Below, piece by piece: positions 2,477 to 9,744 of a stretch of DNA of 64,000 nucleotides (position 1 is its first letter; the number at the start of each line of letters is the position of its first letter). The notes beneath the pieces are model-generated. The model did not search any database, had not been told where the DNA came from, and saw only the letters and a list, made by a program, of their open reading frames with translations. The stretch lies in the sequence record OP745617. One strand, given 5' to 3'. Position numbers and translations under genes: made by a program. Origin of the DNA: Escherichia phage F13.

Positions 2477-2779
2477 ATGAGTTACGACGAAAGGTTTGGC
2501 AGAAGTGGATTATTTCACGATGCTGTATGTAAGGACAGCCAAGATGTTGTCTGCGTATTCAACGTTGATTCTTACGGCGTGCTCAAACCGTTTAAAATCG
2601 GTGAGACATACGAATTGTTTCACGGATGGTTGACGCGTCGCAACAACCTTCCTGATATGGAAGTCTGGTGGATAGAATATAAGGGCCAGGCCCATCGCTG
2701 CAAGGTTGTAGAGGTGCGCGGCGTGAACTACTATCAATCTGTTATCAGCGGCTTTGTTTTTAAAGAGGGTGAGCTATGA
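2477..2779 (+). CDS. hypothetical early protein (100 aa)
   Basis: ATG with AAGGAG RBS; the longer ORF start at 2417 lies inside the promoter and is rejected. Confidence 0.45.
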   Translation: MSYDERFGRSGLFHDAVCKDSQDVVCVFNVDSYGVLKPFKIGETYELFHGWLTRRNNLPDMEVWWIEYKGQAHRCKVVEVRGVNYYQSVISGFVFKEGEL

Positions 2780-3081
2780 GTACCGAAGCAATGAAGAAAA
2801 AGATTTTGAACGCTTTGCAAGAAGCCGTGAACTGTGGTGCAATTAAAGAGTTCAAGGAGACGCAAGAAGGCGGTGAGCCAGTATTCTTCTTTAAGAATAA
2901 AAAGGACGGTGTAGCGGCAATCATGCTATTAAAGAATAGTGATGATACATTTATTCTTTGCGTCGGCGGTTACGACCTTGTCACTGATGATGCATTCATC
3001 ACTTGTGTCGACGGCCTTAATCCTATGTTGACATTTGAGCGTCGCGCCATCCGTGTTGCAACGTTTGGAGGGAATTTATGA
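2776..3081 (+). CDS. hypothetical early protein (101 aa)
   Basis: ATGA overlap. Confidence 0.45.
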   Translation: MSTEAMKKKILNALQEAVNCGAIKEFKETQEGGEPVFFFKNKKDGVAAIMLLKNSDDTFILCVGGYDLVTDDAFITCVDGLNPMLTFERRAIRVATFGGNL

Positions 3082-3263
3082 GTACCGAAGTCCATAACGC
3101 TTCAGCAATGGTAAGCTTTTACCGTAACAAAGGCGTGTCACTCGTTAAAACGCCGCAAGGCATGATGTTCTTTGGCACGCGATTCCTTAAGGCTTCGGAG
3201 CGTGAAACGCTGTCCAAGTTTGACCAGAAAACATTGCACGCAGTTTGGAGAAGACAACAATGA
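3078..3263 (+). CDS. hypothetical early protein (61 aa)
   Basis: ATGA overlap. Confidence 0.35.
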   Translation: MSTEVHNASAMVSFYRNKGVSLVKTPQGMMFFGTRFLKASERETLSKFDQKTLHAVWRRQQ

Positions 3264-3553
3264 GATTAAGCCTAGCTCAGATTCAGACATTATATCGCAT
3301 GGAAGACGGCACATCATACATGTTGCGCGGCGACCGCAAGAAGGCTTATGAGAAACGGCCTTCATTGTTTCACGACGTTAACGCGCCATCAATCCCTGTC
3401 TTATTCCGGCTGGGCCTTGTTGACTGGAAAGTGCCAGGAGAGAAAGACCCAACTCGATATTCACCGGTTGTGATGACAAAGAAAGGTCGTGCAGCATTAA
3501 AAGAAATTAAAGAGCATATGGCTGGAGAAAAATACTATGACATCAAATCTTAA
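3260..3553 (+). CDS. hypothetical early protein (97 aa)
   Basis: ATGA overlap; motif GAGAAGACAACAATG also precedes the gene at 3718. Confidence 0.4.
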   Translation: MRLSLAQIQTLYRMEDGTSYMLRGDRKKAYEKRPSLFHDVNAPSIPVLFRLGLVDWKVPGEKDPTRYSPVVMTKKGRAALKEIKEHMAGEKYYDIKS

Positions 3554-3717
3554 GGCCCGTTTGTTATTCATCAAGCCGCATGTGCCATATAAGATTAGTA
3601 AGCGCACCTGGCTTAACATTTACAACCGCAGCGGCGACCGTTGTCTGTACAAGGCGAAGCGACGCAAGAAGGTATATTCTTACACAACATCTATCAAATA
3701 AATAGGAGAAGACAACA

Positions 3718-4221
3718 ATGAAAATAGAACAACTCGAAGCAGTATTGGAAATGGCCGTAAAAGCTGGCGCAATCAGAAGCTATCGCCGCGAGAAGTCGGA
3801 AAACGATATGGTGTTTTGTCGCAACTTCTATATCGTCGGCAACCTTAATGACCACTACACCATCGAGTGGTATACTAACATGATGACGCTTAAGTCGCGC
3901 ACCATGGAGCTTTGGTGTGATGACATCTGCTTATCCAACACCCATCCATCCTACGACGTTGCATTGGCATTCTATTACGGAAGCCGTCAACCTGTCGCCC
4001 ACATCGGTGAGAAGCATGAGCATCTTAAGGCGCGACCAGAGGAATCAATGGAAGGTTGGATTGAATGGGCTGGCGGCAAGAATCCGGTGCCTGGTAAGAA
4101 GGTCATGTTGATGTGGAGGAATGAAGGGAAGTCTTCTTATTCATCCAATTCAGAAGGATGGCTATGGCAGCACAACGGAAGCGTTTATGACATCATTGCT
4201 TATCGCGTCGTGGAGGAATAA
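3718..4221 (+). CDS. hypothetical protein (167 aa) sharing a C-terminal domain with 5103..5528
   Basis: RBS GGAG; C-terminus WIEWAGGKNPVPGK...DIIAYRVVEE parallels the 5103..5528 product. Confidence 0.5.
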   Translation: MKIEQLEAVLEMAVKAGAIRSYRREKSENDMVFCRNFYIVGNLNDHYTIEWYTNMMTLKSRTMELWCDDICLSNTHPSYDVALAFYYGSRQPVAHIGEKHEHLKARPEESMEGWIEWAGGKNPVPGKKVMLMWRNEGKSSYSSNSEGWLWQHNGSVYDIIAYRVVEE

Positions 4222-4562
4222 TGGAAGAGCAAGAAGGCCGTGAGCTAACATTTGACGAGCAGATGCAAGAGCTTCAGCGCACATCGCCGCTGCGCGGTAA
4301 GGTTGTTGACATTGAGGCGAGCGAATCCAATCTCACCCAGTGGCGACTCAAGTGCACCAGCACAAGCAAGGATATGTTAAGCTTCAAAGTCGGTCAAACC
4401 TATTTGCTTTATGAGGCAAAAGGACTTATTATTGATGGAAGGCAAATCGTCTTCACGGTAGTCAGCGGAATGCGTTGGTTCGTGAAGCGTGATGTCGAGG
4501 GCCGTGATATGTTTGTCGCAGGCTTTCCAGAAACAAGATTCCAATTGGAGAAGGTTAAATGA
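4221..4562 (+). CDS. hypothetical protein (113 aa)
   Basis: Start overlaps upstream stop. Confidence 0.45.
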   Translation: MEEQEGRELTFDEQMQELQRTSPLRGKVVDIEASESNLTQWRLKCTSTSKDMLSFKVGQTYLLYEAKGLIIDGRQIVFTVVSGMRWFVKRDVEGRDMFVAGFPETRFQLEKVK

Positions 4563-4888
4563 AATTGAAATGGTACGTGGACCCTGAGCCGACAGGCCAA
4601 TACAGGTCATTCCAACGTCGCGGCTGGCCGATTTGTTACAGCGGCAATCCCGATAAAGAAGATTGCGAGATGCTCGCCGCGATAGTAAGTCTTAACCATG
4701 ACGGCTATGAAGGCCACTACGCGAGAGCAACCAACCTTCGGCTCAAGGTGCGCATCCATTTCAAGGTCGCAGGCGAGGACCGCACCGGACTCTCCAAAGA
4801 AGAGTTCAGCAGCATTGCCGAAGCAAAGGCATGGCTAAAGGCATTCTACAAGGCCAATCCTAAATTTTATCCAACTAAGGGTGCATAA
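4559..4888 (+). CDS. hypothetical protein (109 aa)
   Basis: ATGA overlap. Confidence 0.45.
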   Translation: MKLKWYVDPEPTGQYRSFQRRGWPICYSGNPDKEDCEMLAAIVSLNHDGYEGHYARATNLRLKVRIHFKVAGEDRTGLSKEEFSSIAEAKAWLKAFYKANPKFYPTKGA

Positions 4889-5106
4889 TGACCGATAAAC
4901 AATACGCAGTCGGGCAACGTGACATCGAGCAACTCGACGAGGGCGGTTATTATACACGCCACATCTATGCTATGACTCAAGAAGGACTTTACAGCAAGTC
5001 GGACATCGCCGCTGAACTGGCCCATCGCGACTTGCAAATTGATCTTCTCAAGATAGAAGTGCAGAACTTACGAAACACCCTGTTAAACACCTGGAGCTTA
5101 AAATGA
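4888..5106 (+). CDS. hypothetical protein (72 aa)
   Basis: Start overlaps upstream stop. Confidence 0.4.
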   Translation: MTDKQYAVGQRDIEQLDEGGYYTRHIYAMTQEGLYSKSDIAAELAHRDLQIDLLKIEVQNLRNTLLNTWSLK

Positions 5107-5528
5107 TACAGCGTTACGACCTGACATATGATGTGGCATCGGACGATTTCGCCGTCACTCCCGTTCCAGAAAGTCATGAAGGACGTTTTGTTGCATATGA
5201 GGACTATGAATCACTGCTCAAGCTTAATGAGTCGCTAACAAAAGAGATTGAGCAATACCACGAGCGCATCAAAGTCGCTGAAGATGTTATCAAGCTTTTT
5301 AGCGAGGCTGTTGAGAAATACAAGGAGCGCAACGTACCGATTAAGGAGGAAGCGTGGACCGTGTGGCTTGGTGGTGAGAATCCTGCACCTGGCGAGATTG
5401 TTGAATACAAGCTGCGCAATGGAGGTGATAAAGTATTGTCGAGACTTTCTGACCATCTTCACTGGGGTCATATAGGAGCACTCAAAGGCAGCGACATCAT
5501 TGCTTATCGGGTCGTTAAGGAGGGGTGA
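5103..5528 (+). CDS. hypothetical protein (141 aa), paralogous C-terminal domain
   Basis: C-terminus WTVWLGGENPAPGE...DIIAYRVVKEG similar to the 3718..4221 product. Confidence 0.5.
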   Translation: MIQRYDLTYDVASDDFAVTPVPESHEGRFVAYEDYESLLKLNESLTKEIEQYHERIKVAEDVIKLFSEAVEKYKERNVPIKEEAWTVWLGGENPAPGEIVEYKLRNGGDKVLSRLSDHLHWGHIGALKGSDIIAYRVVKEG

Positions 5529-6061
5529 TGGGTAACGATGCAGGATGGGGCAAGCCGCGATACTCAAAACTTGCCCACTACTTTGACGACGGCGAGCAAA
5601 TCAGCTTGTGCGGTAAATTCAACAAAGGCAATACAGAGTTGACCGATGCTCAAGAAATGGAATCAAGTCTGACAATTGGTGATTGCTCTAAGTGCAGAAA
5701 GGCATTATATGAGTTATTGACTCTAAGGGGATTGAAAGCGGCAAAATCAAGGGATGAATGGGTCATCAACGTCTGTGAAGGGAATCCAGAATTGATGGAT
5801 GAATTGCTGAAAACAGATGCCGTTAATGCCATTTTCAAAAGGCATTATAAAACTTGTATGCGTTACAAGATGAATGATGATATTATTTTTATGGTATTAT
5901 CTTATTCAAGGAGCACAATGGACGTCAAAAAGCTTCGACAATATCGCCACAAGGTCATGTGTGAATTGCGCCGTTTAGGAGTTATTGTGGATAATAATGT
6001 CATTAAAACGGAGTTAAAGAAGCGTGATAAAAGGAATGGTGACTGGAAGGTCAGCGGATAA
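5525..6061 (+). CDS. hypothetical protein (178 aa) with possible Cys cluster
   Basis: ATGA overlap; SLCGKF...DCSKCRK spacing suggests metal binding. Confidence 0.5.
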   Translation: MMGNDAGWGKPRYSKLAHYFDDGEQISLCGKFNKGNTELTDAQEMESSLTIGDCSKCRKALYELLTLRGLKAAKSRDEWVINVCEGNPELMDELLKTDAVNAIFKRHYKTCMRYKMNDDIIFMVLSYSRSTMDVKKLRQYRHKVMCELRRLGVIVDNNVIKTELKKRDKRNGDWKVSG

Positions 6062-6319
6062 ATAAACACTGTTTACGTGTTTTGAAGAATGGAATGTGTG
6101 CAATGGGTCGCTTTATGCGGCCTTTTGTCGTTTGGGTCATGTTTTGCTATGGAATAATTATGAGGTTGTGTTTTATTTATTAATTGTGCGGAAATATTTA
6201 GAAATATATATAAACAGGATTGTTAATATTTTAATAGTTTATGGCTATTGGTCCGTGGTGTTTGTTAGATTCTATCTATGGATTGGATTTTCTTGGGTCG
6301 TGAAACGTGGTTTTGAACA

Positions 6320-6690
6320 CATTTGATACGCCTAAAATACGGTTAAAAATTAAGCGTATCATGGCTGCAGGCCGCGCCGTTCCTGGATTCCTCTTTTCCA
6401 AATTGGTACACCCTTACGTCATGATACGTCATGGTTTTTTATCCGTATCAGTGTACAACCCTTGCCGCGCCTGGCTTGTACATTAATCTTACGGATGATA
6501 CGGATAAAACTGAGCATCGTTATATATAGAATTCGAAAAATTAATTAACTCCATTTTAAAAACATTTATATTAATTTTTTTCATATCCTCATACTTATGT
6601 TAATTTATATATTTAACGTATCATCCGTAAGATATAAGTAAAAACAAAGACTTGCGGCAATACGGATGATACGTCATGATACGCTTCAAC
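6320..6690. repeat. iteron-like module: direct and inverted ATCCGTATC / GATACGGAT 9-mers flanking an AT-rich core (copy 1)
   Basis: Repeats read directly (tatccgtatca, ttacggatgatacggat, cgtatcatccgtaag, tacggatgatacgtcatgatacg); AT-rich core 6530-6615; homologous module at 22845-23135. Confidence 0.7.
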
Positions 6691-6874
6691 CAGCCAGCAG
6701 CGGCTAAGTCGTTGATTTGCATAACAAGCGGCAAAAGGGATGGATTTCTTTTATACGTATCAAACAGTACACCACGCACCACGGTCCGTTATCCATTCAG
6801 CAATATGATTTGTGTACGTTTATAGCCATAATGAACATCAATCTGCACTTGAATATAATGTCCATCCATTGTAT

Positions 6875-8095
6875 AATTCACACTATTAATTTGCACTATG
6901 GGATTTTGCACTATGAGTCAAGATTATGTAGCGATGCCTGAAGACTTTGAAGACCCGCGATTCGCAGAGCACAATCAGGCTTTATTCGATGAGTTCATTG
7001 ACCTTGTTATTCAGGGTCATGACATGCGCGCAGCTTTTGCACTAGTATTTGGAATGGAAGTTGCAACGGATAACTACACTGGCCAGCGAATCCTTTGCAC
7101 GCAACGCAATCCATACTACAAGATGCGCTTCAAAAAGCGTATGGAAGAGATGCCACTCAAGGATTTGTGGAGCGTAAAAGGTGCAATTCACAATTTGGTT
7201 AAGCTTGTTCGTGATCCAGAAGTCGCGGCGTCAGCCAAGCTTAATGCTATTCGTGAACTGAATATCATCTACGGCATCACGATGATTGATGAAAACGGCA
7301 ATAGTAAAATGGGCCGTTCCATGGACGATTTCTACAAGGATTTTGGAGAGGCGGCCAAAGAAGGTGAGCAATTCTCCCGCCACTAGCCAATTTGCACTAT
7401 AAAACGGCCCTAGAACACATTTTCTCCAATTCTAGGGCCATCGGTAATACGACGGGGAAGGTTACAAACATAAACGCGTTAGAAAGTGTATTATTATAAG
7501 TCATCTTTTAGTCACCTTACGTAACAATTTACGACCTTCAACCGTCCAATCGAACGACTCCACCAGCAGATTCGCACTATAACCTAAGACGATGCGTCCC
7601 TTCTCGTTATCGACCCGCCAACAAGTCTCGAATAGCATTCGATTTGCACTATTAACTATTGCCGCAACTCGCGTAGGATAAGCGCAATTTGAACTATGGT
7701 CGTAAAGGGATAAGGTGCGACCACTTCCGATGGACAACGTAGCGATGAGAATGAGCGTATTCATAAGCCACCAATTTGCACTATGAAAAGCGACCCCGAA
7801 GGGCCGCCATTCGATTAGATAATCTGGAAGGTATAGGATTTGTTGCCGAACTCAAAGTTCAAGCGCCCAGCTTCCTTAAGCTTCATGCGGAAGCGAATGT
7901 GCTTGCTATCCGGCAAGCCCAGCACGGCGAACGCTACGCGGACCGATTTGAACTCGCCTACACCCTCGACCATAACGCCGTTACGGGTGAGACGCTTTTG
8001 CGCCACTTCCTTATTATCCCAACTTTTTGCAATACCTTCGCTATTCGAACGGCGATGGGAAGGAGTTCCATTTTGCACTACGCAATTTGCACTAT
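6875..8095 (+). repeat. array of about 10 copies of the 12-bp motif (A/G)ATTTGCACTAT, all on the plus strand
   Basis: Copies at 6875, 6888, 6903, 7389, 7569, 7641, 7686, 7773, 8071, 8083 (some with one mismatch). Confidence 0.7.
6898..7386 (+). CDS. hypothetical protein (157-162 aa); speculative small terminase or DNA-binding protein
   Basis: ORF starting inside the first motif copies (alternative ATG at 6913); the terminase idea is only from size and the adjacent repeat array. Confidence 0.4.
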   Translation: MGFCTMSQDYVAMPEDFEDPRFAEHNQALFDEFIDLVIQGHDMRAAFALVFGMEVATDNYTGQRILCTQRNPYYKMRFKKRMEEMPLKDLWSVKGAIHNLVKLVRDPEVAASAKLNAIRELNIIYGITMIDENGNSKMGRSMDDFYKDFGEAAKEGEQFSRH

Positions 8096-8521: not shown

Positions 8522-8806
8522 TTACGCTTCGACGAGGGAGAAGGTCTCAAATTCTTCTTCGCCCATAACGAGTAAGATGTTACCGATTTCGACCGCTTCG
8601 AAGAAGTATCCGTTAACGTTTACTTCGAAGGCTTCGCGGTCCGATTCCGGTAACGCCGCGTAAAGTTTAAAAGCCTCGGCGACCGTTACCCCACCCGCCT
8701 CGATGGTCTGGTCTACGTTCGCGGCGTAGACTTCGGATAAAATTTGTTTTACGCCGTAGTTCTCGACGATAGCGTTACGGATGGAAGAAACGTTAAGAAT
8801 AGCCAT
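8522..8806 (-). CDS. small protein (94 aa), paralog family member
   Basis: Aligns with the 9744..10034 product (SxIR, VY..NVD..IE, NG[YF].[FY]..EIG); own promoter upstream. Confidence 0.5.
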   Translation of the reverse strand: MAILNVSSIRNAIVENYGVKQILSEVYAANVDQTIEAGGVTVAEAFKLYAALPESDREAFEVNVNGYFFEAVEIGNILLVMGEEEFETFSLVEA

Positions 8807-8874
8807 TTTAAACTCCTAGTTGGGAGAGGCGTTAACGACCTATTCGCTAACTCATCCCGTCCCGATATGAGTAC

Positions 8875-9333: not shown

Positions 9334-9744
9334 CGAAAAAGTGCTTTACTTCTTAGTACACTAAGACTATAATGTTTTATATCGAGAGGGGATGAGGTAG
9401 CGAATAGGTCGCTACCCTCCCGACTAACTAGGAGAATATTACGCGCGGTTGCCTTCGTCGGTCTTTCCTTCGACGATATCAAGTACGCCGAACGTAGCGC
9501 CATCCGCTTCGCGAAGACCGACGACGAAGCCGTTACCCTTATCGAGACGGTTACTCCGCGCGGCGAAACGTTAATTATCGTCGAGTATATCGACGTAGAA
9601 GGCGATAAGGCTTATAAATATTTTATCGCAAAATAACGAAAAAGTGCTTTACTTCTTAGTACACTAAGACTATAATGTTTTATATCGAGAGGGGATGAGG
9701 TAGCGAATAGGTCGCTACCCTCCCGACTAACTAGGAGAATATTA
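9139..9744. repeat. tandem direct duplication, 2 x 303 bp (9139-9441 and 9442-9744)
   Basis: Near-identical units read directly; each carries the gene 3' end, promoter (TTTACT-17-TATAAT at 9345-9373 and 9648-9676), leader hairpin and RBS. Confidence 0.85.
9442..9639 (+). pseudogene. promoter-less 3' fragment of gene 9031..9333 created by the tandem duplication
   Basis: Copy of the C-terminal coding part; at the junction the RBS is followed by ACG rather than ATG. Confidence 0.5.

What the first reader, a model, noticed from the sequence alone, without database searches (positions are those of the whole stretch)
3718..5528. Two early proteins share a conserved C-terminal domain
The 3718..4221 and 5103..5528 products have unrelated N-termini but similar C-termini (W.[EV]W.GG.NP.PG ... 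DIIAYRVV[EK]E), suggesting a shared targeting or interaction module on different effector domains, as seen in host-takeover proteins.
Basis: seen in the sequence. Interest (0 to 1): 0.4.

Follow-up and report, generated by a model that had tools for sequence, protein, structure and literature searches.

The report
Swappable small domain on two phage proteins
Two small proteins of an E. coli phage (Wifcevirus) do share a ~57-residue C-terminal domain; it belongs to a very large, uncatalogued family of phage domains of unknown function, and related phages swap its central ~30 residues like a cassette, which hints at a binding role that has not been tested.

Summary
The products of 3718-4221 (SP13_098, 167 aa) and 5103-5528 (SP13_102, 141 aa) share a C-terminal module (27/58 identical, E=6e-13). 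Their N-termini are unrelated, and this is the only strong paralog pair in the 31-gene array.

- **Family:** the module is an autonomous, acidic, all-beta domain (AlphaFold pLDDT 86). It has at least 2,265 cluster representatives. It occurs alone (57-78 aa), in tandem arrays of 2-4, or fused to more than 100 unrelated partners.
- **Cassette exchange:** all 14 Wifcevirus genomes compared carry it at the same two loci. The edge motifs (GW.xW.GG.NPVPG and DIIAYRVV) are conserved. The ~30-aa core falls into about 12 discrete types that are reassorted between phages and shared between the loci, with sharp breakpoints.
- **Function:** inferred only. The likeliest role is a protein-binding adaptor of early accessory or host-interference proteins.

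This is a moderately interesting, uncharacterised domain family.

The parts
3718..4221 (+). gp098 (SP13_098), 167 aa: N-terminal alpha+beta domain, disordered linker, C-terminal module
   Evidence: ORF and annotation; two-domain AlphaFold model, pLDDT 85
3718..4017 (+). gp098 N-terminal domain (residues 1-100; one helix and eight strands); equals phrog_21861; confined to Wifcevirus; nearly invariant among orthologs
4024..4047 (+). Disordered interdomain linker of gp098 (residues 103-110, pLDDT<50)
4054..4098 (+). gp098 module, conserved 5' edge motif GWIEWAGGKNPVPGK (residues 113-127)
   Evidence: pN 0.08 among 14 genomes
4099..4188 (+). gp098 module, swappable core (residues 128-157, KVMLMWRNEGKSSYSSNSEGWLWQHNGSVY; 'type 7')
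   Evidence: DNA identity dip to 0.69; pS 0.63, pN 0.37; breakpoints; about 12 core types
4189..4218 (+). gp098 module, conserved 3' edge DIIAYRVVEE; its last codons hold a GGAGGA Shine-Dalgarno-like sequence for gp099, whose ATG overlaps the stop (TAATG)
   Evidence: 29-nt repeat 4189-4217 / 5493-5521, 90% identical; junction sequence
5103..5528 (+). gp102 (SP13_102), 141 aa: acidic N-terminal part plus C-terminal module
5103..5330 (+). gp102 N-terminal part (residues 1-76; pI 4.6; heptad-like charged sequence, helical by inference); highly variable among Wifcevirus
   Evidence: pI; aligned in only 46-49% of 13 genomes at 5205-5340; orthologs down to 33% identity
5352..5396 (+). gp102 module, conserved 5' edge AWTVWLGGENPAPGE (residues 84-98)
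5397..5492 (+). gp102 module, swappable core (residues 99-130, IVEYKLRNGGDKVLSRLSDHLHWGHIGALKGS; 'type 1')
   Evidence: the same core type occurs in the gp098 ortholog P0233
5493..5525 (+). gp102 module, conserved 3' edge DIIAYRVVKEG; holds an AGGAGG Shine-Dalgarno-like sequence for gp103 (TGATG overlap)
6105..6133 (+). Terminator-like hairpin plus T-run closing the same-strand array of small, translationally coupled genes
   Evidence: a terminator is annotated at the equivalent place in phage WFH

Best explanation
The shared C-terminus is one copy each of an autonomous ~55-60-residue, acidic, all-beta domain that is widespread in phages and prophages of Proteobacteria. It has two conserved end motifs: an N-terminal G-W-I-x-W-x-G-G-x-x-P-V and a C-terminal D-I-[IV]-A-Y-R-V. 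These enclose a central beta-hairpin region that varies in sequence and length but keeps R29, G31, W45 and usually H47.

My best reading is that the domain is a non-enzymatic protein-binding (adaptor or inhibitor) module of accessory, probably early-expressed, phage proteins. It would act alone, in tandem arrays, or tethered to other small domains. In gp098 the partner is a Wifcevirus-specific alpha+beta domain on a flexible linker. In gp102 it is an acidic, probably helical segment.

In Wifcevirus the two genes are fixed 'slots'. The conserved edges provide the DNA homology through which old, diverged core alleles are exchanged between phages and occasionally between the two slots. This changes whatever the central surface recognises.

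Shown: homology, autonomy, promiscuity, absence from curated families and PDB, the predicted fold, cassette exchange with breakpoints at the edges, and the genomic context. Inferred: protein binding, the core as the specificity determinant, early expression, and a host or defence target.
For: - Homology: E=6e-13; both copies match the family profile at 1e-22 and 5e-21.
- Size of family: 2,265 representative clusters at E<=1e-3.
- Architectures: 46 of 64 word-index hits are stand-alone proteins of <=78 aa. The 147 representatives in which the profile found the module carry 1-4 modules at N-terminal, internal or C-terminal positions. Partner segments fall into 129 clusters, 107 of them singletons.
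- Structure: confident all-beta model, pLDDT 86. In gp098 it is a separate domain behind a disordered linker. The same fold is found in 28 BFVD viral proteins at E<=1e-3, including FV3, Cronus, phiM12 and Atu_ph07.
- Not enzymatic, not basic: no catalytic family or fold matched. Median pI is 4.8, and 92% of members are below pI 6.
- Recurrent partners are phage early-protein domains: dGTP_diPhyd_N x5, DUF3310 (SaV) x4, DUF6378 x3, Lar x1. SaV is an early, toxic protein that binds AbiV (PMC8306868 and PMC11373665).
- Context: stand-alone copies lie in same-strand arrays of small genes beside CI-like repressors, Rad52, YqaJ, RusA, Dam, HNH and Lar-like genes.
- Cassette exchange in Wifcevirus: all 14 genomes carry the module at both loci. 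About 12 core types exist, and two occur at both loci. Eco4M-7 versus EC150 is 97-100% identical over codons 1-110, 43-50% in the core, and 93% at the 3' edge. Core pS is 0.63 and pN 0.37, against 0.32 and 0.06 in the N-domain. The EC150 gp098 core and the WFH gp102 core are 78% identical at the nucleotide level. The gp098 ortholog P0233 carries the gp102-type core.
Against: - There is no direct evidence of binding, of a target, of toxicity or of expression timing.
- Core pN/pS is 0.58, below 1, so positive selection is not demonstrated. The whole region is mosaic, so the exchange could be neutral flux.
- The strongest conservation is in the edge motifs and in polar residues R29, H47, D55 and R60. 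This could mean that the conserved face, not the variable core, is the functional site.
- Some gp098 orthologs lack the module or have it frameshifted (P0258, P0261, P0254, P0260), so it is dispensable at that locus in some phages.
- The conservation profiles come from the best-scoring family members and are biased towards the motifs.
Confidence: 0.4

Rival explanations
1. The conserved face is the functional site. The invariant 'clasp' (W8, W11, G13-G14, P17 ... D55, I56, A58, Y59, R60, with R29, W45 and H47) binds one conserved ligand or host hub common to all carriers. The variable middle is merely tolerant, and its exchange is a by-product of phage mosaicism. The module would then bring every carrier to the same place.
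For: Across 242 modules from 141 non-Wifcevirus proteins, the conserved positions include polar residues: R29 0.82, H47 0.74, D55 0.85, R60 0.89, Y59 0.95. Core pN/pS is below 1. Neighbouring genes are also mosaic. Tandem arrays keep the edges and vary the middles.
Against: Trp, Gly, Pro, Ile and Val conservation is what a 55-residue fold needs for its core. H47 and the Cys of GGxCP are not kept in Wifcevirus. Discrete core types persist and are reassorted among phages that are 97-100% identical in the flanks, which is more than drift gives. The conservation profile is biased by how the members were collected.
Confidence: 0.25
2. It is a nucleotide- or nucleic-acid-binding accessory domain, for example one that positions carriers on DNA, RNA or dNTP-metabolising enzymes.
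For: Recurrent fusions to the N-terminal domain of dATP/dGTP diphosphohydrolases, DUF6378, dATP-dGTP_PPHyd and an HTH domain. Conserved aromatic residues plus Arg and His.
Against: The family is acidic (median pI 4.8; gp098 module 5.3, gp102 module 6.3). There is no match to any nucleic-acid-binding fold or family. Such fusions are about 9% of the representatives scanned. The 'polynucleotide kinase' annotation of the Acidovorax phage ACF1 carrier has no Pfam support.
Confidence: 0.1
3. It is a passive structural module (folding, solubility, spacer or oligomerisation unit) with no specific target. The variation is neutral.
For: It tolerates any position and copy number, and it is dispensable in some gp098 orthologs.
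Against: Stand-alone 57-78-aa versions are maintained as separate genes in many phages and prophages. Both Wifcevirus loci keep an intact module in all 14 genomes compared. Strong purifying selection acts on the edges (pN 0.08-0.10).
Confidence: 0.12
4. The similarity is chance, low complexity, or an artefact of ORF calling.
For: None found.
Against: E=6e-13 pairwise; profile E-values of 1e-22 and 5e-21; thousands of homologs; both ORFs are annotated and conserved in 14 genomes.
Confidence: 0.01

Closest known systems
PHROGs 9174, 11995, 16943 and 26870 (phage protein families, function unknown)
   Same: Both window proteins match all four through the module only, at different positions in the profiles: E from 2e-13 to 6e-5 for gp098 and from 1e-10 to 3e-5 for gp102.
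   Different: These are whole-protein clusters, not a domain definition. None has a function, a structure or a name. The N-domain of gp098 is a separate PHROG (21861).
SaV / DUF3310-type small early phage proteins, with the related PF18909 and PF19905 domains, and Lar-like restriction-alleviation domains
   Same: They are small, early, host-interfering or defence-interacting phage protein domains that are shuffled among phages. The module is repeatedly fused to them. SaV is early, toxic and binds AbiV.
   Different: gp098 and gp102 do not contain these domains. The module is all-beta and unrelated in sequence. The link is co-occurrence only.
Hypervariable segments flanked by conserved glycine-rich motifs in T-even phage adhesin gp38 (from my own knowledge, not tested here)
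   Same: Short conserved Gly-rich edges bracket divergent segments, and recombination at the edges swaps the segments between related phages. Here the edges are GG-x-NP-x-PG and DIIAYRVV, with breakpoints at the edges.
   Different: gp38 is a virion receptor-binding protein. These are small non-structural proteins in an accessory gene array, with no sequence or fold relation.
Polyvalent or modular anti-defence proteins of phages and conjugative elements (Iyer et al. 2017, from my own knowledge), and small promiscuous phage C-terminal domains such as DUF551
   Same: They follow the same logic of combining small mobile domains in proteins made early in infection. One carrier of the module has a KfrB domain and one a Lar domain.
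   Different: The window proteins are small two-part proteins without enzymatic domains. No Pfam family, DUF551 included, matches the module even at E<=10.

Membership tests
Module family defined here (profile from alignment A2; overlaps PHROGs 9174, 11995, 16943, 26870) | Significant match to the family profile over its whole length, with the signature W-x2-W-x-GG-x2-P ... R-x-G ... W ... D-I-[IV]-A-Y-R | tested here: met
   gp098 E=1.2e-22 and gp102 E=5.2e-21, near full-length on the 65-position profile. PHROG matches. Signature from 242 modules. Caveat: both window modules are themselves rows of A2, so their profile E-values are partly circular. The PHROG matches and the 64 independent hits are not.
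Module family defined here | Independent folding unit (occurs alone and in any position or copy number) | tested here: met
   Stand-alone 57-78-aa proteins; 1-4 copies per protein; separate domain behind a disordered linker in the gp098 model.
Any curated family (Pfam-A 2025 copy, NCBIfam 20, PADLOC 2.0) or solved structure | Profile or sequence match above threshold | tested here: not met
   No Pfam family for the module even at E<=10 across 48 members. No NCBIfam match and no PADLOC match. PDB sequence search: best E=0.63, an antibody chain.
SaV-like (DUF3310 / dGTP_diPhyd_N / DUF6378) early proteins | Pfam match to one of these domains | tested here: not met
   gp098 and gp102 have no such match. 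The domains occur only as fusion partners in other carriers.
Diversity-generating retroelement (DGR) variable protein | A near-identical template repeat of the variable region nearby, differing mainly at adenines, plus a reverse transcriptase | tested here: not met
   The only repeat between or around the two genes is the 29-nt 3' edge. The cores of the two loci are 44% identical at the nucleotide level on average. The variants are discrete old alleles with high pS. I did not search specifically for a reverse transcriptase.
Early (host-takeover) phage genes | Transcription in the first minutes of infection | not testable with these tools
   Only organisation supports it. The array is same-strand and tightly coupled (TAATG, ATGA and TGATG junctions) and ends at a terminator-like hairpin. 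Stand-alone homologs show analogous contexts. The papers read hold no transcript data.

The most novel reading that the evidence does not exclude
The module is a natural hypervariable binder scaffold. A fixed two-motif clasp presents an exchangeable ~30-residue hairpin surface. Phages draw on a shared pool of 'specificity cassettes' to neutralise different host defence or takeover targets. In Wifcevirus, two expression slots (gp098 and gp102) would hold different cassettes, which could contribute to the unexplained resistance of these phages to nearly all defence systems tested in the BASEL study (PMC11990801).
Probability: 0.12. Interest if true: 0.8.

Novelty: new variant of a known kind. 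Interest (0 to 1): 0.45.

Why it matters
Domain shuffling among small early phage proteins is ordinary. This module is unusual in four ways:

- It is very abundant, with at least 2,265 clusters at 50% identity.
- It is missing from every curated family library searched and from the PDB.
- Its predicted fold has no detectable PDB neighbour.
- Its central half behaves as an exchangeable cassette among near-identical phages.

If the core sets binding specificity, the family would be a large unexplored reservoir of small host- or defence-targeting binders. It would also offer a compact natural scaffold. Wifceviruses now grow on engineered E. coli K-12 (Bas98-101 carry four different combinations of core types), so this can be tested directly. 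If the conserved face is the active part, the family would point to a host hub that many proteobacterial phages target.

Tried and rejected
- **Third copy in the phage:** gp082, just upstream of the window, gave a weak BLASTP hit to the GG-NP-PG motif (E=0.05). It fails the profile (E=0.83), so I rejected it.
- **DGR or site-specific shuffling:** rejected. There is no template-like repeat, and the alleles are old with high pS.
- **Polynucleotide-kinase fusion in Acidovorax phage ACF1:** the module lies inside that CDS, but the PNK annotation has no Pfam support. I did not use it.
- **PF26207 flag on P0028:** not reproduced by hmmscan. It probably concerns that protein's N-terminal part. I left it open.
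- **AFDB fold search:** the library was unavailable.
- **Genome-contig scan:** it returned only 2 loci because of the narrow peptide pattern, so it was of no use for taxonomy.
- **Clustering of gp102 N-terminal types:** collapsed by single linkage, so I do not report it.
- **Literature:** full-text searches for the motif strings found nothing. The Wifcevirus papers do not mention these genes.
- **Downstream genes gp099 and gp103:** they are unrelated to each other (E=1.5).

Full report
Window 3000-7000 is 100% identical to Escherichia phage vB_EcoM_SP13 (genus Wifcevirus), and 27 other phage records, almost all from Escherichia hosts, match at 80-99%. BLASTP aligns residues 112-167 of gp098 with residues 83-140 of gp102: 27/58 identical, E=6e-13. 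The N-terminal parts are unrelated (E=0.086). Among the 31 annotated small genes of this part of the genome, this is the only strong paralog pair (E=1.3e-11; next best 3e-4). Six-frame profile searches find no further copy in the 64-kb window.

**Anatomy of the two proteins.** AlphaFold (47-sequence alignment, pLDDT 85) predicts gp098 in three parts:
- an N-terminal alpha+beta domain (residues 1-100, one helix and eight strands);
- a disordered linker (residues 103-110, pLDDT<50);
- the C-terminal module.

**The module belongs to a large, uncatalogued family.** A profile of the two copies finds 2,265 cluster representatives at E<=1e-3 among 1.84 billion (134 at E<=1e-10).
- In the word-indexed search, 46 of 64 hits are stand-alone proteins of 59-78 aa. 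Others carry unrelated N-terminal extensions.
- The 147 top representatives in which the profile found the module carry 1-4 copies at N-terminal, internal or C-terminal positions. This list is biased towards multi-copy proteins because it ranks by total score.
- Their 162 non-module segments fall into 129 unrelated clusters, 107 of them singletons.
- From 242 modules of 141 non-Wifcevirus proteins the signature is G-W-I-x-W-x-G-G-x-x-P-V ... V ... R-x-G ... W-x-H ... D-I-[VI]-A-Y-R-V. W45 (0.99) and P17 (0.98) are almost invariant. The segment between the two end motifs is 24-51 residues long.
- The family is acidic: median pI 4.8, and 92% of members are below pI 6.
- Hosts named in the matching phage records are all Proteobacteria: Escherichia, Klebsiella, Salmonella, Edwardsiella, Aeromonas, Pantoea, Sinorhizobium, Caulobacter and Acidovorax, plus Xanthomonas, Erwinia, Agrobacterium and Rhizobium in BFVD.
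- No curated library holds it: Pfam, NCBIfam, PADLOC, PDB sequences.
- Four PHROGs of unknown function cover it.
- Full-text searches for the motif strings returned no paper.

**Partners and neighbourhoods.**
- Only about one in ten representatives has a recognisable partner domain. The recurrent partners are the N-terminal domain of phage dATP/dGTP diphosphohydrolases (5), DUF3310 (4), DUF6378 (3) and Lar (1).
- BFVD likewise shows the module fold in 'SaV-like', 'DUF6378' and 'diphosphohydrolase N-terminal domain' proteins.
- DUF3310 is the domain of lactococcal SaV, an early, toxic phage protein that binds the abortive-infection protein AbiV. A mycobacteriophage DUF3310 protein is highly cytotoxic (PMC8306868 and PMC11373665).
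- Stand-alone members sit in same-strand arrays of small unannotated genes of prophages and phage-like contigs. Their neighbours include CI-like repressors, Rad52/YqaJ/RusA recombination genes, Dam methylases, HNH and Lar-like genes.
- In the window, gp098 to gp103 are translationally coupled (TAATG, ATGA, TAATG, ATGA, TGATG junctions). The array ends at a terminator-like hairpin at 6105-6133.
- All of this fits an accessory, probably early, gene set. I found no transcript data for any Wifcevirus, so 'early' is an inference.

**What related phages show: a cassette.** I fetched the syntenic region of 13 other Wifcevirus genomes. Every genome has the module at the same two loci. In the wider collection some gp102-like proteins carry two modules (190-222 aa).
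- Among gp098 orthologs, the N-domain and the two edge motifs are nearly invariant. The ~30-residue core falls into discrete, very different types.
- Over 165 Wifcevirus modules there are about 12 core types at >=60% identity. Two of them occur at both loci; one has 19 cluster representatives at the gp098 locus and 13 at the gp102 locus.
- One gp098 ortholog (P0233) carries the core of the window's gp102.
- The combinations are reassorted. SP13 and Ro157lw carry the window's own pair of core types. WFC and Bas99 keep the gp098 core but carry a different gp102 core. Bas100, Eco4M-7, EC150, RCIP0319 and WFH each carry a further combination.
- At the DNA level the breakpoints are sharp. Eco4M-7 versus EC150 is 97-100% identical over codons 1-110, 43-50% over the core, and 93% in the last ten codons.
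- Nei-Gojobori proportions over 14 genomes:

| Region of gp098 | pS | pN |
|---|---|---|
| N-domain | 0.32 | 0.06 |
| Edge motifs | 0.35-0.41 | 0.08-0.10 |
| Core | 0.63 | 0.37 |

- The variation is therefore an exchange of old, diverged alleles by recombination at the conserved edges, not recent point-mutation hypervariation. Core pN/pS is 0.58, so positive selection is not demonstrated.
- The 3' edges of the two copies share a 29-nt repeat (4189-4217 and 5493-5521, 90% identical, 17 nt exact).
- The last codons of each module also hold the Shine-Dalgarno-like sequence of the next gene. This may add a DNA-level constraint there.
- The whole region is mosaic: gp095/096, the middle of gp102 and gp103 align in only 38-54% of the genomes. 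Even so, the dip inside gp098 is local to the core. Identity is 0.69 at 4125-4170, against 0.89-0.94 upstream and 0.93-0.97 in gp099.
- A DGR is excluded, because there is no template-like repeat.

**How it most likely works.**
- Shown: the module is an autonomous, non-enzymatic, acidic small domain, kept as a gene of its own in many phages. It is combined freely with other small domains and multiplied in tandem. In Wifcevirus it is held at two fixed loci whose central segment is exchanged.
- Inferred: it is a protein-binding unit (an inhibitor when alone, an adaptor when fused). The central hairpin region carries the specificity, and the conserved end motifs build the fold and provide the recombination anchors. 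I give this reading about 0.4.
- Main rival (0.25): the invariant clasp and the conserved polar residues (R29, H47, D55, R60) form the working surface for one common target, and the core is a passenger.
- Other rivals: a nucleotide or nucleic-acid role (0.1) is suggested by the diphosphohydrolase-domain fusions but is opposed by the acidic charge. A passive structural role (0.12) is opposed by the many stand-alone genes and by the purifying selection on the edges.
[quoted passage not shown] This makes unassigned variable accessory genes worth testing, but it is not evidence for these two.

**Verdict.** Novelty is a new variant of a known kind: an uncharacterised, very widespread phage domain with a cassette-like core, within the familiar theme of shuffled small phage proteins. 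Interest is 0.45.

Noticed in passing
window 8523-8807 (-) and 9442-9732 (+) (SP13_108 and SP13_111): A second, weaker paralog pair among the small genes: 28% identity over 81 aa, E=3e-4 in the 31-protein all-against-all. Both are 'hypothetical protein'.
   Followed up: partly
window 4207-4223 and 5517-5530: The last codons of both modules (VVEE*, VKEG*) contain GGAGG-type Shine-Dalgarno-like sequences for the next gene, whose ATG overlaps the stop codon (TAATG, TGATG). All junctions from gp098 to gp103 overlap by 1 or 4 nt. This suggests translational coupling and a dual constraint on the 3' edge.
   Followed up: partly
window 3078-3553, 5205-5340, 5528-6061 and 6061-6465: Presence/absence mosaicism among 13 other Wifcevirus genomes. 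gp095/gp096 align in about 54% of genomes, the middle of gp102 in about 46%, gp103 in about 38% (others carry a shorter 450-nt gene there), and the downstream intergenic region in about 55-60%.
   Followed up: partly
window 6105-6133 and 6832-6877: A terminator-like hairpin with a T-run lies right after gp103. Two overlapping sigma-70-like promoter matches (10/12 each) lie upstream of the ORF at 6898-7386. Between them is an ~800-nt region without convincing genes.
   Followed up: no
P0258 (Escherichia phage AV128), P0261, P0254, P0260, P0259 and P0005 (gp098 orthologs): Some Wifcevirus gp098 orthologs end right after the N-domain (108 aa). Others are frameshifted or split, so that the module is a separate 59-aa ORF. 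The module is therefore dispensable or decaying at this locus in some phages.
   Followed up: partly
P0003 (70 aa, on a 67,257-nt Wifcevirus-size contig): This product starts with MKLKWY, like gp100 of the window (4559-4888), and continues directly into a gp102-type module. It looks like a deletion that fused the gp100 start to the gp102 module.
   Followed up: no
L022:2297-3112 (Acidovorax phage ACF1, Acf1_00042): This CDS is annotated '3'-phosphatase, 5'-polynucleotide kinase' and contains the module at about residues 69-125. It has no Pfam match at E<=0.01, so the annotation looks unsupported.
   Followed up: yes
L023:5422-5706, L025:5503-5823 and L026:3330-3644: A gene of family PF27050 (Phage_P22_Y8K6) lies a few genes from a stand-alone module in 3 of the 4 contigs sampled. 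This may be a conserved neighbourhood in temperate-phage early operons.
   Followed up: no
window 2477-2779 and 4221-4562 (SP13_093 and SP13_099): The two products share a 12-residue motif, FK[IV]G[EQ]TY.L[FY] (BLASTP E=0.009 pairwise but 0.25 in the all-against-all). This is too weak to call homology.
   Followed up: partly
P0089 (915 aa) and P0103 (1031 aa): Two large proteins, apparently from high-GC organisms, carry three modules at the C-terminus behind a long region with no Pfam, NCBIfam or PADLOC match. The module is therefore not restricted to small phage proteins.
   Followed up: no
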